Below, piece by piece: positions 31,701 through 37,700 of a stretch of 64,000 nucleotides of DNA. Position numbers: made by a program. Numbering within the stretch: the first letter of the stretch is position 1; every line of letters starts with the position of its first letter. This DNA comes from Methanobacteriota archaeon (GTDB taxonomy: Bacteria; Myxococcota; UBA727; JABDBI01): positions 6,519 through 70,518 of the forward strand of contig JABDBI010000007.1 of NCBI GenBank assembly GCA_013288705.1, written 5' to 3'.

Positions 31701-34700
31701 CGCGTATGACTACGCAAAAATTGCCCTCGAAGGAAGCAAGGCACCCGTCGGCCTTACGGCGCGAGCGTTATCCAATTGGATGATTCCAAAACCTGCGGCA
31801 ATACTAGGGACAGCTCAACGGCATGAATATTTGCAACCGACCCTTGATTGGGTTCTCGCTTACCTCCTTACGCCGGGGGACAATCTAACAGGTGGTGCCC
31901 TCTTGGCAGGCGCAACTGCGATTAGTCTGGCTAATGGGACCAATCCAAGCACCTTTGTATCTGTGGGCCTAAGCAAGCTACAAGGAGCTTTGAAAGAAAA
32001 ACTTCGGCCAAATGTTCCAGATTTTGTTCCGAAGAGCTTTCACAACGCTGCGGTACATTCGGTCGCTCCAGTACTTGAGTTTGCGACATTCGCTGCCTAT
32101 TATTTGGCGACGGGAAAATCGGATCATCAGCTCTTCCGAGCGATTGGAAAAAAATCTGTCTATGCTGCTGTCGACGGCATTGAAGCATCTTTAGAAGATA
32201 CCGTTCGAGCGACACATGGTGATTCGAAATGGCTGACACCGGCAACGCATCTATTTACCGCCACCGTGCTTGCAGGCCTTTGCTACAACCTGCCCGCTGG
32301 CAAGGCAGTCTGGAACACCACTTCCGAGATTCTCACAGAAATGGCTGCCTATCATGCAGCAAATGCTGTCTATGCATCGCTTAACACAACTGATCTAAAG
32401 GGAACGCCATTAATGCCACTCTTGCAAGGCGGCTTGGCGTTAGCGTCATCGACGCCATGGGCATGGCCATTGATACAGAAGCTTCCCATCCGAAATCCTG
32501 GCGATGCAGCTGTGGGATTTTGGCTTGCGGGGTATTTGCCTGCCGTAGAAGCGCTGATGAGCGTACCAGGCGCGATCTATCAGAGATGGGCTGGAGCGCA
32601 AATCTAGATGCATAACACCACTTGAGGAATCCTGCTGATATTAGGCGTATTACATAGCTCCCAACTCGCCAGCAAATCTGGCCTCGCCAACGAATCAAAC
32701 ACAAACACCGCGTGTCTCTGACGAGGAAGCTGCACGCATCGCGAGAGCTTTGCATAATCATCGTTACAGAGCGTTTACCGATAGCAAGAACCCGCGCTAT
32801 TGATTCTCAATGCGCCTCGGCCCACGAATGGCCGATGCCTCCCTCAACGGCGATGGGCACCGAAAGCTTGGTGGTGTGACACATGATGTGCTCCACCAAC
32901 TTTTGCGCCTCGACGCCCTCAGCGCGCGGCGCTTCGAGCAAAAGCTCATCGTGCACCTGTAGCAACATGCGCACGCGCGGCATGTCTTGCTGCAATCTCT
33001 TATCGACCTCAATCATCGCGAACTTAATAATGTCTGCCGCCGTCCCTTGAATCGGCGTATTGATCGCCATGCGTTCAGCGCGCTGCACCAACATCCGATT
33101 CTGCGACGAGAGCTCAACAAGTTTTCGTCTCCGACCAAATATCGTTCGCACTTCCTTCTCTGCGCGCGCAGTTTCTAACATCGTCTTCTGCCAGTTATAA
33201 ACCCCCGCATAGCGCTCATAGTAGCGATGCAAATAATCGGTTGCTTGCTTACGAGAAATCCCCATCGTCTGACTGAGTTTGTGCACGCCCATGCCATAGA
33301 TGAGGCCAAAGTTAATGGTCTTCGCCTGATTGCGCTGCTCTTTGGTCACTTTGTCGAGTAGAACAGAGAAAATCTCGCTCGCGGTGCGCTGGTGCACATC
33401 CTCGCCGCGCGTAAATGCATCGAGCATGACCTGATCTTGTGCCACATGCGCTAGAATGCGCAACTCGATTTGCGAGTAGTCAAGCGACACTAGTACATTG
33501 CCCTCCTCGGCCACAAACGCCTCGCGAATACGGCGCCCCTCTGGGCTGCGAATGGGAATGTTTTGCAAATTAGGATCACTCGATGAGAGTCTGCCTGTCG
33601 CAGCAACAGCTTGATTGAAACTGGTATGCACGCGCCCGGTTTCGGGGTTTACCAGCTTGGGCAACGCATCCACGTAAGTGCCCTTGAGCTTCGACAACAA
33701 ACGGTGCTCGAGTAACAGCTTGGGCAGCGGATGCAACAAGGCAAGCTCTTCGAGCACGTCTGCGTCAGTAGACTGCCCTGTCTTGGTCTTTCTGACCGGG
33801 TCGAGCCCGAGCTTGCCAAACAGCACATCCCCAACTTGCTTCGGGCTGGCTAAATTAAATTGCATGCCAGCCATCTCTTGCGCTTCCTTCTCAAGATGAC
33901 GCAATTTGGCTTCGAACTCGGTGCTCATGAGCCCAAGTTGTTGCGTGTCAATTTTGACACCTACTTGTTCCATTCGACAAAGCACTTCTTCGAGGGGGAG
34001 TTCGAGATCGTGATAGAGCGATTCGAGCTTCTCTTCCTTCAGACGAGGCTCGAGAATGTTTGCTAAGCGAAAGGCTACATCGGAGTCTTCAGCTGAGTAA
34101 GCCACGGCTTGTGCGAGTGGAACGGCAGAGAACAGAATCTTGTCGCGACCGGATCCACATACATCAGCGTAGGTGATATTGTCGTGATACAAATATTGGC
34201 GGGAGAGTTCGTCGAGATTGTGACGCGCGGTGTCTGCCTCGAGTAGGTAGCTTGCGAGCATTGGGTCGCCACCGATGTGAAACGGAGCAAAACCTGCGCG
34301 CATGAGTACCTCGCGATCGAATTTGGCATTTTGGGCGATGATTTGGCGATGTGGATCGAGAAGTAGCGGGTTTAAAGCGGCTCGCACCTCGTCGACAGTG
34401 AGCTGCTCTGGCACTGCTTCTTTGGTGTGCCCGAGGGGGATGTAGGCGGATTCGCCGATGGCCCAGCTCAAAGAGATGCCGACCAGGTTGGCGCGAATGG
34501 CATCGATGGAATCAGTTTCGGTGTCGATGGCAAGTTGAGTTGATTTGGCGACTGCAGCGATGACGTCACTAAGCTGAGAGGAATTGATCACCGCAACATA
34601 TTTGCTCCGGTCGATCTCCCTCTCCCGCCCAGCGGGAGAGGGATTAAGGGTGAGGGTGGACGTCGCGGTACTTCCTCCACCCTCACCCTGCCCTCTCCCG

Positions 34701-37700
34701 CCCTGCGGGAGAGGGTTCTGCAGCAGCCGCTTAAAATCAAGCTCGTGAAACAGCGCCTGCAGCTCCTGTTCCCTTGGCCCCGAATAGCGCAAATCCTCAA
34801 TCTCCACCCCAACCGGTGCGTTGCAATCAATCGTCACCAACTTCTTACTCAATCTCGCCAAATCCGAATCATTCAGCAATTTCTCCCGCCGCGACTTCTG
34901 CTTCATGAGCGGCGCCGCATTCAAAATCGACTCGAGCGACCCATATTCCTTCACCAACTCCGCCGCCGTCTTCTCCCCAATTCCGCGCACCCCGGGAACA
35001 TTATCCGACGTATCCCCCGCCAACGCCAACACATCCACCACGCGATCAGGAGGCACGCCAAATTTGGCAATCACTTGCTGCGAATCCACAAACAACTCAG
35101 TCCCATTCTTTTCCGCACGCAACTCATCGAGCAACCAAATGTCGCCATTCACCAATTGCATAAAATCTTTATCGCCCGTCACAATCACGACCTGCCGACC
35201 TGCAGCATGGGCTTTGCGTGCCAAGGTCCCAATCAAATCATCGGCTTCAAATCCAGGCTTGATCAGCGTCTGCATACCAAACGCTTCCGACATGCGATGA
35301 ATCAACGCAAACTGCGGCACCAAATCTTCCGGCGGTGGTGGGCGATTCGCTTTGTACGCGCTGTACATTTCATGCCGAAAAGTACGCTCTTTGGTATCGA
35401 ACGCGATGGCCACATACCGAGGCTGATGCGCGCGCAGCAGCTTGAGCAGCATGGTGGTGAAGCCATAAACTGCGTTGGTGGGAACACCTTTACTCGAGGT
35501 CAAAGGCCGGATGGCATAATACGCGCGGAAAATGTAGCCTGAGCCGTCGATCAGATAAACGGCATCATCTCGTAATTGCGGCAGATTGGTCATCATAAAA
35601 ACCTTGCTTGAACAGTTTCACGGCAGACGCTACTAAACCGTTAGGATTTTAGAAAGGGCACCCAGTGAATCATTACGAGGCGTTTGCACTGACTATCGCA
35701 TCAGCGCTGCCACTCCCAGAGCTTGCAGCATGCTCTGAACGAAAGCCAGACGTTCGCATTGGGTTTGCAATGATTGCAGACGAAGACAGACATAGTGGCC
35801 TCGCTCAAGTCTTTTTGTCCATTCCAGGGATTGCTCGGTTTCTTATCAGAAATGGCACTGAAGTCATCATTGAGGCGGACGACAAAGCAAGTGAAGCAGA
35901 TATTCGCCTTTTTGTGCTCGGCTCTGCGATGGGAGCCATTTTGCAACAACGTGGCCAATTGGTTTTACATGGCAATGCTGTCGAGATTGATCAACAATGT
36001 GTGACGTTTGTGGGTCCGTCTGGCAGTGGTAAAAGCACTTTGGCGTTTGCCTTTCAGAGCCAAGGATTTCGCATTCTGGCCGACGATGTCTGCGCTGTTT
36101 CATTGACAGACCCATTGCACCCAAGGGTGGTGCCAAGCTTCGCACAGATAAAGCTTTGGGAAGACTCCGCGCAGGCGCTCGGGGAAAGTACATTGACAAA
36201 GCAGCGCATCCACAATCGATTCAACAAATTTGCTTTCCCCTCGCTCTCGCATTTTGCACCGCTGCCTCTGCCATTGTCCCGGGTGTATGTGCTCAATCCC
36301 TGCGACAAACCAGGGTTCTCTGTTGAGACCCTGATGGGACATCACAAGTTTATCGCGCTTCATGGCAATACCTATCGTCCGCAATTTCTATGCACCAGCA
36401 GGCAAAAAGAAGAGCATTTGGCGCAATGTGCCCTCGTGGCAAAAAGTGTGACGGTGAAGAGAATCAGCAGGCCAAAAGAACCCTTTTTAATTAGGGAACT
36501 GACACAGTTCTTACTGCAGGATATCCAAATACAGCCTAGGAGCGTGATGCATGAAGCAGATTATCAGGTCCAGTGATTTGATCACCAGCGACATGGACGA
36601 TGAGTTGGTCATGCTGAGTATCAATAGTGGAAAATATCATGCCATAAATGCAGTGGGGAAACGCATTTGGCAACTCTTAGAAAGGCCTATGAATCTACCG
36701 CAATTATGCGAGGCGTTGTCATCGGAATTTGACGTCGATGCTAAGCGTTGCACGGAAGAAACAGCTGGTTTTGTGGCACAGCTCTTTACACATAACCTGG
36801 TGAAGTATCATGATGATGCGTCGATGGCTTCAACTTGAGGCTGTGATGAGCTTGGCAGTGGCGCAACTGGCACTTTATGTGGTGCCATTTCGGGTTATTG
36901 CAGGATATTTTGGGAAAACCTTGCCGGGAAATCCCCCTGCCCCCTTTTCCAAAGGGGGAAATGTGGATCCCATCGTTTTGGGGATTGGCACGGCGATCGG
37001 ATCAATGGCGAGGCGGCTGCCTTGGAAGCCGAAGTGTTTGGCGCAGGCCATTGCGGGGAAAATCATGTTGAAGCGCAGATATATTCCAAGTGCGCTTTAC
37101 TTGGGTGTTCGAAAAGAAGCAGATCGCAGTCTTGCTGCACATGCATGGCTTCGGAGTGGCGATATTATTCTCACGGGTAACTACCAACTCGATACGTATA
37201 CGGTCCTATCAGCGTTTATTGGATGACTCTATGAGTGCAATATGTGGCATCGTTGGCATACACGAGCCCCTCGCTCACGATGAAATCCGACATATGCTCA
37301 GCAACTTGGTGGCCTATGCCCCAGATCGTATCGGGTTCTTCGCTGGCGATAGCATCCAGCTTGGTCAAGTACAACGCTTCAACACACCTGAGTCTTTGTC
37401 TGAAGTGTTGCCACTCGAGGACGAAATTGCCGGCCCGGTGATTGTTGCGGACGTGCGACTAGACAATCGTGAGGAACTATTTGCTGCGTTAGGGATCCCA
37501 ACATCCGAGCACCGCACAATGCCAGACAGCAAACTGATTCTGCTCGCCTATCAAAAGTGGGGCAAGCTTTGCCCATCACATTTGCTCGGCGATTTTATCT
37601 TTGCGATTTGGGACAAACGCATGCGAAAGTTGTTCTGCGCGCGTGACCATTTCGGACAGCGGGTTCTGTATTACACCCAATGCAACGGCGGATTTTACTT

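What the first reader, a model, noticed from the sequence alone, without database searches (positions are those of the whole stretch)
34618..34715. GC-rich palindromic repeat units inserted in frame into housekeeping genes (polA x2, dusB x2)
A ~42-bp unit, [CCCTCTCCCGC-N3-GCGGGAGAGGG]-ATTAA/TG-[GGGTGAGGGTGG], occurs four times:
- 34618..34660 and, inverted, 34676..34715, inside the polA 5'-nuclease/Klenow linker
- 49985..50027 and, inverted, 50114..50155, at two separate positions of dusB

Copies differ mainly in the hairpin loop. All four keep the reading frame and add 14-17 aa peptides (PAGEGLRVRVG or LTLNPSPAxRER, depending on orientation). These peptides are absent from E. coli PolI/DusB at the same positions, as I recall those sequences. 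The behaviour resembles the Rickettsia palindromic elements, a mobile or recombinogenic repeat tolerated inside coding sequence. All four copies in this 64-kb window fall within genes.
Basis: seen in the sequence. Interest (0 to 1): 0.7.

Follow-up and report, generated by a model that had tools for sequence, protein, structure and literature searches.

The report
Known triplex-motif repeat inside two genes
Four copies of a short GC-rich hairpin-plus-G-tail repeat already known from E. coli intergenic DNA (BoxC / PIT / "TM" triplex motif) are here read through in frame inside the DNA polymerase I and tRNA-dihydrouridine synthase genes of an uncultured bacterium, which is an unusual place for a known element rather than a new kind of element.

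Summary
Four exact copies of CCCTCTCCCGC-N3-GCGGGAGAGGG-(ATTAA|CA)-GGGTGAGGGTGG lie at 34618-34659(+), 34677-34715(-), 49985-50026(+) and 50114-50155(-), against a chance expectation below 1.

The unit is not lineage-specific. Its three 9-mers are identical to the published G/C-rich intrastrand triplex motif (TMECO = BoxC = PIT elements; Holder 2015, PMC4666352). The same 40-42-nt unit occurs in at least 118 genome stretches from several phyla.

What is unusual is the location. In E. coli the family is reported as always intergenic, and in about 120 copies from other genomes I could confirm only 4 coding loci. Here all four copies are in frame and stop-free.

- In PolA, a canonical tail-to-tail doublet forms the hypervariable linker between the 5'-nuclease and Klenow parts (aa 294-326; net length change only about +6 aa).
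- In DusB, two copies sit in two inter-helix loops of the C-terminal domain (about +10 aa each).
- No DusB homolog, and only one PolA homolog out of about 120 each, carries such a peptide.

Best reading: a selfish or neutral structured repeat of unknown copying mechanism. The surviving coding copies are those in an open frame (4 of 6), with a length divisible by 3, in permissive loops. This resembles Rickettsia palindromic elements in behaviour only, not in family membership.

The parts
34618..34659 (+). TM copy 1 (42 nt). Hairpin 34618-34642 (11-bp stem, loop CCA), linker ATTAA 34643-34647, G-tail GGGTGAGGGTGG 34648-34659. Read antisense by polA as TLTLNPSPAGRER.
34660..34676 (.). 17-nt spacer of the tail-to-tail doublet in polA (encodes STATS...).
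   Evidence: Spacer length is typical of the family (mode 14-16 nt in 36 doublets).
34677..34715 (-). TM copy 2 (39 nt, linker CA, loop AGG), the inverted partner of copy 1. Read in sense by polA as PLPQGGRGQGEG.
32807..35596 (-). polA (929 aa). The TM doublet encodes aa 294-326, the linker between the 5'-nuclease (Pfam ends at aa 276; Taq homology ends at aa 293) and the 3'-5' exo/Klenow part (Pfam starts at aa 333; Klenow homology starts at aa 331).
49985..50026 (+). TM copy 3 (42 nt, loop CCC, linker ATTAA). Read in sense by dusB as (S)LSRPAGEGLRVRV(G), DusB aa 245-259.
50027..50113 (+). 87 nt of native dusB sequence between the two copies (NSPTPEERLSVLLRHLHAHIEFHVQISG). It is homologous to all relatives and is helix H264-284 of the model.
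50114..50155 (-). TM copy 4 (42 nt, loop TCA, linker ATTAA). Read antisense by dusB as TLTLNPSPAERER, DusB aa 288-301.
49252..50370 (+). dusB (372 aa from ATG 49252; the ORF is open from TTG 49210). All family-invariant columns are retained and the Pfam Dus match has E 3.8e-79.

Best explanation
The four units are copies of the BoxC / PIT / TM (TMECO-type) family of G/C-rich interspersed repeats. Each consists of a C-rich arm, a complementary purine arm and a second G-rich segment. As single-stranded DNA the unit folds into a hairpin, and the published family forms a purine-motif intrastrand triplex in vitro.

In this uncultured, probably Myxococcota-related genome, a variant with an 11-bp stem and an ATTAA (or CA) linker has been copied into coding DNA.

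The copies that persist are those selection can tolerate:
- they are 42 or 39 nt long (14 or 13 codons);
- they are read in one of the 4 (or 5) of 6 frames that lack stops;
- they encode Gly/Pro/Ser/Arg/Glu-rich peptides;
- they sit in the PolA interdomain linker and in two inter-helix loops of the DusB C-terminal domain.

They are therefore translated passengers, not functional modules of the proteins.

Shown: family identity at sequence level, in-frame placement, absence from homologs, loop or linker location, canonical doublet architecture, and the rarity of coding copies elsewhere.

Inferred: that the copies are recent acquisitions; that spread is by a copy-and-paste process acting on the hairpin or doublet (a trans-acting enzyme or replication template switching, mechanism unknown); and that the peptides are neutral or slightly deleterious.
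For: Family identity:
- All three 9-mers (CCCTCTCCC, GGGAGAGGG, GGGTGAGGG) equal the published TMECO core.
- The tail obeys the purine-triplex pairing rule against the purine arm in 257 family motifs.
- The same stem and tail occur in at least 118 genome stretches across Burkholderiales, Alphaproteobacteria, Acidobacteriota, Chloroflexota, Myxococcota and others.
- 36 of 120 units have a tail-to-tail inverted partner, with spacer mode 14-16 nt. E. coli pairs always combine two linker types. The polA pair has a 17-nt spacer and linkers ATTAA + CA.

In-frame passengers:
- The ORFs are intact with full domain sets, and all invariant Dus columns are present.
- Stops occur in only 2 of 6 frames, and three different open frames are used.

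Permissive sites:
- The PolA peptide 294-326 lies between Taq-nuclease homology (ends aa 293) and Klenow homology (starts aa 331), in a linker that varies from 51 to 81 aa among 61 homologs.
- The DusB inserts coincide with alignment gaps against 1vhn and with coil 247-263 (pLDDT about 53) and loop 285-295 of a confident model.

Recent or lineage-specific acquisition:
- 0 of 119 DusB homologs and 1 of about 119 PolA homologs carry TM peptides.
- Syntenic DNA of relatives has no TM.
- The four copies have no mismatch in stem or tail.

Recurrence:
- An identical copy sits in frame in an AAA_28 protein on metagenome contig L120.
- The same 11-bp hairpin sits in the PolA linker of a 65%-identical relative, L121.
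- Other phyla have in-frame copies in UvrA, DnaE2, a P-type ATPase and an MFS transporter.

No regulatory signature: no Rfam family, promoter or terminator at the sites. The literature found no promoter or terminator activity for PIT elements.
Against: - No mobility mechanism is demonstrated. There is no target-site duplication, no transposase in the 64-kb window and no nucleotide-level empty site, since the closest relatives share only about 70% aa identity.
- The published work found no link to transposons, phages or plasmids. I found none in phage records and only chromid hits among plasmids.
- In PolA the net length change is small, so replacement or in-situ remodelling of the linker cannot be told apart from insertion plus deletion.
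- Two inverted copies 87 nt apart in dusB are unlikely for independent random insertions at the observed density (roughly 1-2% by my estimate). That suggests local targeting or a function I have not identified.
- The perfect conservation of the copies could reflect DNA- or RNA-level selection rather than youth.
- The genome-wide coding versus intergenic ratio for this organism is unknown.
Confidence: 0.7

Rival explanations
1. The inverted pairs are functional cis-regulatory RNA or DNA structures within the two housekeeping genes. In the transcripts they would form about 40-bp stems that could serve as RNase III targets, slow ribosomes at a domain boundary, or switch between hairpin and G-quadruplex. 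On this view they are retained by selection at the nucleic-acid level.
For: - Both genes carry the units as inverted pairs.
- Predicted mRNA structures are extreme: -92.5 kcal/mol (z -9.0) for polA and -106.7 kcal/mol (z -10.0) for dusB.
- The four G-tracts form a canonical G4 motif, and a G4-hairpin-duplex switch was proposed for the E. coli elements.
- There are zero mismatches among the copies although the peptides should be weakly constrained.
- The dusB pair brackets exactly one helix-coding segment.
Against: - Homologous genes in all relatives lack the units, so any function is not ancestral to polA or dusB regulation.
- The same unit is mostly intergenic, with no consistent gene context, in other genomes.
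- PIT elements showed no promoter or terminator effect and no in vivo effect.
- The RNA hairpin (-23.7) outcompetes the G4 (-9.6) in the 42-nt form.
- Purine-motif triplexes do not form in RNA (stated in PMC4666352).
- No experiment supports RNase III cleavage.
Confidence: 0.12
2. The units are recombination or instability hotspots that arose or were copied by DNA repair, through template switching or gene conversion between existing copies during replication of structure-forming DNA. There is no dedicated mobile-element machinery. Coding copies are accidental repair scars.
For: - The family is associated with local genomic instability and small deletions or rearrangements in E. coli.
- No transposase association is known, and none is present in the window.
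- Inverted doublets, tandem arrays of an 84-nt TM-containing unit in an MFS gene (L039) and two direct copies in a P-type ATPase (L007) are the kinds of products expected from slippage or template switching.
- The PolA linker appears replaced rather than simply extended.
Against: - Template switching needs a nearby or paired donor. Copies 15 kb apart, and in different phyla, with identical 34 fixed bases argue for faithful copying of a defined unit.
- Lineage-specific conserved flanks in Acidobacteriota and Burkholderiales copies look like element boundaries.
- This rival overlaps with the best explanation, which leaves the copying mechanism open.
Confidence: 0.12
3. The similarity is convergent. 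Gly/Pro/Arg-rich low-complexity linkers of a moderately GC-rich genome happened to evolve these sequences in situ, or the copies are assembly artefacts of a metagenome bin.
For: The PolA linker is hypervariable and compositionally biased in many homologs. The source is a metagenome-assembled contig.
Against: - Four copies share 34-37 identical bases including a perfect 11-bp palindrome, with chance expectation near 0.
- The same sequence exists in hundreds of unrelated genomes.
- The flanks are continuous native coding sequence in frame.
- 42-nt repeats are far below the assembler k-mer sizes that cause chimeras (inference).
Confidence: 0.03

Closest known systems
BoxC / PIT elements / TMECO (G/C-rich class II intrastrand triplex motif; Bachellier 1990s; Hoyne & Maher 2000, 2002; Holder et al. 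2015, PMC4666352)
   Same: - Identical three 9-mer blocks in the same order (C-arm, purine arm, G-tail).
- Variable loops and conserved stems.
- Multi-copy.
- Tail-to-tail inverted doublets with 16-27-nt spacers and unlike linkers.
- No associated transposase.
- No promoter or terminator signal.
   Different: - The stem is extended to 11 bp by GC...GC, so that loop 1 counted the TMECO way is 7 nt.
- The linker is 5 or 2 nt instead of 3.
- The tail is extended by TGG.
- The host is a Myxococcota-like MAG rather than an enterobacterium or cyanobacterium.
- Above all, the copies lie inside coding sequence and are translated, whereas the E. coli copies are reported as always intergenic.
Rickettsia palindromic elements (RPE; Ogata et al. 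2000), from my own knowledge
   Same: - Palindromic repeats inserted in frame into essential genes.
- They add surface peptides that are absent from orthologs.
- They are tolerated at permissive positions.
- The copying mechanism is unknown.
   Different: - RPEs are about 100-150 bp, AT-rich and confined to Rickettsia.
- There is no sequence similarity and no triplex or G-tract architecture.
- The present unit is 39-42 nt (98 nt as a doublet), about 70% GC, and found across phyla.
REP / REPIN elements mobilised by RAYT transposases (Nunvar 2010; Bertels & Rainey 2011; Di Nocera 2013, PMC3733652)
   Same: Short GC-rich imperfect palindromes, often in inverted doublets that form long hairpins. 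They are abundant and non-autonomous.
   Different: - No GTAG/CGTC terminal tag (the unit begins CCCT).
- An extra non-palindromic G-tail.
- Not extragenic here.
- No RAYT gene seen in the window.
G-quadruplex-hairpin-duplex switch motifs HPG1/HPG2 of E. coli (Kaplan et al. 2016, PMC5100583)
   Same: These are the same E. coli sequences as TMECO types A and B (GGGAGAGGG-TTA/CCG-GGGTGAGGG preceded by a C-rich arm). The window units also contain four G3 tracts with loops of 3, 5 (or 2) and 3 nt.
   Different: They were described only in intergenic, 3'-UTR-proximal positions. For the window's 42-nt form the hairpin is predicted to be much more stable than the G4.

Membership tests
TM / TMECO (BoxC, PIT) | C-rich 9-mer CCCTCNCCC followed by a complementary G-rich 9-mer GGGNGAGGG (hairpin) | tested here: met
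   All four copies have CCCTCTCCC...GGGAGAGGG. As ssDNA they fold as an 11-bp hairpin at -13.8 kcal/mol, z -3.8 to -5.4.
TM / TMECO (BoxC, PIT) | A second G-rich 9-mer GGGNGAGGG able to form G.G-C, A.A-T and T.A-T triads antiparallel to the purine arm | tested here: met
   GGGTGAGGG is present in all four copies. The pairing rule holds at both variable positions in 257 family motifs. This is a sequence-level test only.
TM / TMECO (BoxC, PIT) | Loop lengths of the published TMECO pattern: first loop N3-6, second loop N3 | tested here: not met
   Counted between the 9-mers, loop 1 is 7 nt (GC-N3-GC) and loop 2 is 5 nt (ATTAA) or 2 nt (CA). The units do satisfy the broader ITxF definition in the same paper (stem 6-15 with at most 1 mismatch, loops 1-6) if the stem is taken as 11 nt. 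Hence a variant, not a strict TMECO.
TM / TMECO (BoxC, PIT) | Intergenic location | tested here: not met
   All four copies are inside polA or dusB in frame. E. coli copies are 'always intergenic', and listed E. coli places have no annotated feature under them.
TM / TMECO (BoxC, PIT) | Frequent tail-to-tail inverted doublets that combine two linker types | tested here: met
   The polA pair has a 17-nt spacer and linkers ATTAA + CA. The family spacer mode is 14-16 nt in 36 of 120 units. E. coli pairs are A+B types.
TM / TMECO (BoxC, PIT) | Formation of a stable intrastrand triplex by the isolated strand (CD/NMR) | not testable with these tools
   Needs spectroscopy on the 42-nt oligonucleotide. 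It has been shown only for the E. coli sequence.
Rickettsia palindromic elements (RPE) | Sequence membership in RPE-1 to RPE-8 (about 100-150 bp, AT-rich, Rickettsia genomes) | tested here: not met
   The unit is 39-42 nt, about 70% GC, in a Myxococcota-like MAG and many other phyla. RPE properties are from my own knowledge; no RPE sequences were compared.
Rickettsia palindromic elements (RPE) | In-frame insertion into protein-coding genes at positions absent from orthologs | tested here: met
   This is a behavioural resemblance only.
REP / REPIN-RAYT | Conserved GTAG or CGTC tetranucleotide at one end of the palindrome | tested here: not met
   The units begin (T)CCCTCTCCC, and no GTAG or CGTC flanks any copy.
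REP / REPIN-RAYT | A cognate RAYT (Y1 transposase) gene in the genome | tested here: inconclusive
   None of 60 window ORFs has a transposase domain, but only 64 kb of the genome is available.

The most novel reading that the evidence does not exclude
The BoxC/PIT/TM motif is an actively spreading, cross-phylum element with a still unknown copying machinery. It can colonise coding sequence, so that in some lineages (here a Myxococcota-like one) it remodels linkers and loops of essential proteins. As inverted pairs it also installs about 40-bp RNA stems inside housekeeping mRNAs that affect their stability or translation.
Probability: 0.15. Interest if true: 0.7.

Novelty: new variant of a known kind. 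Interest (0 to 1): 0.42.

Why it matters
BoxC/PIT/TM elements have been known for about 30 years, but their function and means of spread have never been established. They have been characterised as strictly intergenic elements in E. coli.

This work shows that the same core occurs with identical stem and tail in many phyla. In at least one lineage it sits in frame inside polA, dusB and a third gene, and it occurs sporadically in UvrA, DnaE2, a P-type ATPase and an MFS transporter elsewhere. That gives the family an RPE-like dimension.

Coding copies also provide natural markers, because they have clean presence/absence states in conserved genes. These could be used to date copying events and define element ends, which intergenic copies do not allow.

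There is a practical point too. These peptides (LTLNPSPAxRER, SRxAGEGxxVRV, PLPxGGRGxGEG) are repeat-derived and should not be read as protein motifs in annotation or structure prediction.

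Tried and rejected
1. Retrieving the source genome. Exact look-ups of the window's DusB and PolA found nothing on record, and cluster look-up gave no accession or name. Genome-wide copy number and coding/intergenic ratio for this organism therefore could not be obtained.
2. The metagenome scan for the ATTAA-linker variant returned only two short contigs.
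3. A protein search with the TM-encoded peptides returned 48 candidates, none scoring E<=10. The breadth of host proteins could not be surveyed this way.
4. Rfam at gathering threshold found only one tRNA in the window and nothing at the sites.
5. Promoter and terminator scans at both sites found nothing.
6. Pfam on about 60 ORFs found no transposase or RAYT in the window.
7. Phage records gave no match. Plasmid records gave partial matches only, on 0.6-2.5-Mb chromids. Thirteen IMG/VR contigs carry the unit but were not analysed further.
8. Pseudogene reading rejected: both ORFs are intact, with full domain sets and all invariant Dus residues.
9. RPE and REP membership rejected (see membership test).
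10. The G4 as the dominant transcript structure is rejected for the 42-nt form (hairpin -23.7 against G4 -9.6 kcal/mol). For the 39-nt copy 2 a mixed G4 fold is predicted to be slightly better.
11. The GC3-based coding call for copies in other genomes is crude. Fifteen 'one flank coding' cases were left unresolved, and only four of those genome loci (L030, L113, L007, L039), plus the metagenome contig L120, were verified by Pfam.
The conclusion rests instead on the PDB alignments.

Full report

Yes. Reading the window shows four units of the form CCCTCTCCCGC-N3-GCGGGAGAGGG-linker-GGGTGAGGGTGG:

| Copy | Coordinates | Strand | Loop | Linker |
|---|---|---|---|---|
| 1 | 34618-34659 | + | CCA | ATTAA |
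| 2 | 34677-34715 | - | AGG | CA |
| 3 | 49985-50026 | + | CCC | ATTAA |
| 4 | 50114-50155 | - | TCA | ATTAA |

- The 11-nt arm occurs 8 times (4 hairpins) against 0.87 expected.
- The 12-nt tail occurs 4 times against 0.15 expected.
- The 28-nt arm+linker+tail occurs 3 times against 0 expected.
- The window has no further or degenerate copies. The only other GGGNGAGGG is a solitary GGGCGAGGG at 42652.
- The window is about 52% GC, while the units are about 70% GC.

**2. The host genes**

ORF 32807-35596(-) is a complete DNA polymerase I, with 5_3_exonuc_N, 5_3_exonuc, DNA_pol_A_exo1 and DNA_pol_A. ORF 49252-50370(+) is a Dus-family tRNA-dihydrouridine synthase.

Their best named relatives are Myxococcales, Myxococcota or 'Deltaproteobacteria' MAG proteins at about 50-60% identity. 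The closest unnamed relatives reach about 70%. The organism is therefore an uncultured, probably Myxococcota-related bacterium, though I could not retrieve its record.

The rest of the window is ordinary chromosome. It includes ThrRS, efflux pumps, mevalonate-pathway genes, Mdh, Sdh, YbeY and PhoH. No transposase is present.

**3. What the unit is**

A literature search on the 9-mers led directly to Holder et al. 2015 (PMC4666352). Its 'TMECO' motif is CCCTCNCCC-N3-6-GGGNGAGGG-N3-GGGNGAGGG. This is the E. coli BoxC repeat, rediscovered as the 'potential intrastrand triplex' (PIT) element by Hoyne and Maher.

The three 9-mers of the window units are identical to TMECO type A/B entries in that paper's Table 1. 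According to the paper:

- The family has 3610 copies in 262 proteobacterial genomes, and related G/C-rich motifs occur in cyanobacteria.
- The isolated strand forms a stable class II purine-motif triplex in vitro.
- No triplex was detected in vivo.
- The elements have no promoter or terminator activity.
- They are not linked to transposons, phages or plasmids.
- They are associated with local genomic instability.
- In E. coli K-12 they are 'always located intergenically', with five inverted pairs that each combine two linker types.

Kaplan et al. 2016 (PMC5100583) describe the same sequences as a G-quadruplex-hairpin-duplex switch, again intergenic only.

The window units differ from the strict TMECO pattern in three ways. 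They have a GC...GC extension of the stem (11 bp), a linker of 5 or 2 nt, and a TGG extension of the tail. They fit the paper's broader triplex-finder definition. I file them as a variant of this family.

**4. Distribution**

The hosts include many Burkholderiales (Rubrivivax, Roseateles, Mitsuaria, Cupriavidus), Alphaproteobacteria, Acidobacteriota, Dehalococcoidia, Chloroflexus, Anaeromyxobacteraceae, Eisenbacteria, Phycisphaerales and others.

- Loop and linker vary freely, while stem and tail are fixed by the search pattern.
- The exact ATTAA-linker variant is rare, with two metagenome contigs only.
- E. coli holds 21,534 places for its own variant in 4,605 of 5,426 genomes. Seven are on plasmids, and the listed places have no annotated feature under them.
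- The window's unit has no match in phage records, only chromid matches among plasmids, and 13 matches in 2.9 million viral contigs.

In 257 family motifs collected from all loci, the tail base follows the purine-triplex rule against the arm base it would contact: A with T or A, and G with G. This includes 7 non-trivial variants. However, 204 of the 257 are the same canonical sequence. That speaks for copying from a common source at least as much as for structural selection.

**5. Doublet architecture**

36 of 120 units in other genomes have a tail-to-tail inverted partner, with spacers mostly 10-25 nt and a mode of 14-16 nt. The polA pair has a 17-nt spacer and unlike linkers, so it is one canonical doublet of 98 nt.

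The dusB pair is atypical. Its 87-nt 'spacer' is native dusB sequence, homologous in every relative.

**6. Are they insertions, and where do they sit in the proteins?**

*PolA.* Homology to the Taq 5'-nuclease ends at aa 293 and homology to the Klenow fragment starts at aa 331. Pfam domains end at aa 276 and start at aa 333. The doublet encodes aa 294-326, which is the interdomain linker itself.

Among 61 homologs this span varies from 51 to 81 residues with no conservation. The window has 68, against 62 in the two closest relatives. The doublet therefore occupies or replaces the linker, with a net change of about +6 aa.

*DusB.* Insert 1 (aa 245-259) lies where 77 of 119 homologs have 4 residues, so it adds about 11 aa. 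Insert 2 (aa 288-301) lies in a loop of variable length, and adds about 10 aa compared with the closest relatives.

T. maritima Dus (1vhn) aligns across the C-terminal domain with gaps exactly at both inserts.

An AlphaFold2 model built from 50 sequences (mean pLDDT 88.8, pTM 0.90) gives this layout:
- Insert 1 falls in coil 247-263 (pLDDT about 53), between helices 236-246 and 264-284.
- Insert 2 falls in loop 285-295 plus the first turn of helix 296-317.

All family-invariant Dus residues are retained. Neither gene looks like a pseudogene.

*Homologs.* None of 119 DusB homologs has a TM-type peptide, and only one of about 119 PolA homologs does.

**7. Frames**

The 42-nt form is open in 4 of 6 frames and the 39-nt form in 5 of 6. 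Both lengths are multiples of three.

The host genes use three different open frames:
- antisense-3 for copies 1 and 4 (TLTLNPSPAxRER);
- sense-2 for copy 2 (PLPQGGRGQGEG);
- sense-3 for copy 3 (LSRPAGEGLRVRV).

This is what one expects if insertion is blind to frame and selection keeps the tolerable outcomes. It also argues that the segments are translated.

**8. How unusual is a coding location?**

I classified about 120 copies from other genomes by stop-free span and by the codon-position GC signature on both flanks:

| Class | Copies |
|---|---|
| At gene ends or intergenic | 53 |
| Open but not coding-like | 48 |
| One flank coding | 15 |
| Both flanks coding | 2 |

Translation and Pfam verified genuine in-frame copies in four of those genome loci:
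- a UvrA-like protein (L030);
- the PHP domain of a DnaE2-like polymerase (L113);
- a P-type ATPase, with two copies (L007);
- the central loop of an MFS transporter, with three tandem copies (L039).

A fifth case comes from a metagenome contig, an AAA_28 (NadR-like) protein (L120).

So coding copies exist across phyla but are a few percent of the total. Four of four in this window is significantly different: Fisher p = 1.3e-5 by copies, 1.9e-4 by sites, and 0.008 if every ambiguous case is counted as coding.

Two further observations tie the behaviour to this lineage.
- L120 (52% GC) carries a copy identical to window copy 1 down to loop, linker and 5' TCT, and it encodes the same TLTLNPSPAGRERE.
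- The PolA of a 65%-identical relative (L121, 44% GC) has the identical 11-bp hairpin CCCTCTCCCGC-AA-GCGGGAGAGGG in the same linker, while closer relatives lack it.

About 21-23 kb of syntenic DNA from each of two relatives contains no TM.

**9. Structures**

- Each unit folds as ssDNA into the 11-bp hairpin at -13.8 kcal/mol, z -3.8 to -5.4.
- In the transcripts the inverted pairs could form very long stems: -92.5 kcal/mol (z -9.0) for polA and -106.7 kcal/mol (z -10.0) for dusB.
- The four G3 tracts are a canonical G4 motif, but for the 42-nt form the RNA hairpin (-23.7) is predicted to beat the G4 (-9.6).
- There is no Rfam family, promoter or intrinsic terminator at the sites.

**10. Mechanism**

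I commit to the following, with about 0.7 overall confidence. Confidence in family identity and in in-frame passenger status is higher, and confidence in the mode of spread is lower.

These are copies of a selfish or neutral structured repeat of the BoxC/PIT/TM family. A recent burst in this lineage placed them in coding DNA. The survivors are those in an open frame, of 3n length, in a disordered linker or surface loop.

- Shown: identity, placement, absence from homologs, permissive sites, and rarity elsewhere.
- Inferred: recency, based on zero mismatches among copies against about 30% protein divergence from the nearest TM-free relatives. Also inferred is a copy-and-paste process acting on the hairpin or doublet.
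- Unknown: the enzyme or repair pathway responsible.

The main rivals are a cis-regulatory RNA/DNA role for the inverted pairs, and a repair-scar or template-switch origin without dedicated machinery. The close spacing of the two dusB copies is not explained by random independent insertion, and I leave it open.

**11. Novelty and score**

New relative to the papers I could find are:
- the in-frame coding copies in essential genes;
- their concentration in one lineage;
- the recurrence of the same hairpin in the PolA linker of a relative;
- the breadth of phyla that share an identical stem and tail.

In-frame palindromic repeats are conceptually precedented by RPEs and by some MITEs. I rate this a new variant of a known kind, with moderate interest.

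Noticed in passing
window 35665-40955 (+): Immediately downstream of polA (divergent) is a lasso-peptide-like gene set. It comprises an ORF without a Pfam hit (35665-36576), PqqD (36551-36838), an asparagine-synthase-type protein (37090-39108) and an ABC transporter (39102-40955). The 36839-37089 gap could hold a precursor peptide.
   Followed up: partly
window 27742-28992 (+): A 416-aa protein matches the eukaryotic pepsin-type aspartyl protease family PF00026 over the full profile (E 1.7e-25), which is uncommon in bacteria. Nearby are an ANF_receptor-domain protein (26162-27634), a Ser/Thr kinase (59685-60815) and a weak PI3_PI4_kinase match (50627-53374).
   Followed up: no
window 46911-47210 and 47338-47637: A direct repeat of 300 nt at 76% identity with 427-nt spacing overlaps the cytochrome c ORF 47052-47780. 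It is probably an internal or tandem duplication of a haem-binding domain.
   Followed up: no
L121 4061-4114 (+): The PolA linker of a 65%-identical relative (44% GC) holds the same 11-bp hairpin with a 2-nt loop. This is followed by a second, unrelated palindrome (GACTTTGC-TTTG-GCAAAGTC) and then GGGAGAGGG, so the tail is displaced by an inserted hairpin. The peptide is LPLPQAGEGDFALAKSGEG.
   Followed up: partly
L039 about 7100-7300 (+): In a Dehalococcoidia MFS transporter the unit is part of an 84-nt segment repeated three times in tandem in frame (PSPAGRERDGVRVGAESGASALREETAx), within the central cytoplasmic loop. This shows amplification of a coding copy by tandem duplication.
   Followed up: partly
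L024, L026, L034, L041, L045, L050, L073, L083, L088, L098 (Acidobacteriota): In Terriglobia/Acidobacteriota MAGs the unit (linker GACGG) is embedded in a longer conserved element with fixed flanks (5' CCTCACCCCGCCTTCGGCAC, 3' GCTCTCGCGACCCACGGCT). Many Burkholderiales copies share a 5' yTTrCT and a 3' GAnGGTGGCG flank. Lineage-specific flanks around a universal core suggest mosaic elements.
   Followed up: no
window 6793-7441 (-) and 17272-17772 (+): There is a HigB-type toxin with an HTH_3 antitoxin, and a separate PIN-domain protein. A tRNA lies at 6233-6306 (-) next to the ThrRS gene.
   Followed up: no
window 53362-58972 (-): A run of five consecutive ORFs (81-549 aa) has no Pfam match. 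A 105-nt repeat at 70% identity (57110-57214 and 58878-58982) suggests paralogous genes.
   Followed up: no
L119 2097-2210 (+): The same ATTAA-linker unit occurs as an intergenic doublet in an unrelated 47% GC metagenome contig, with a degenerate inverted partner (CCACCCTCTCCC...GCGGGAGAGGAGGGG). The rare variant is therefore not confined to the window's lineage.
   Followed up: partly
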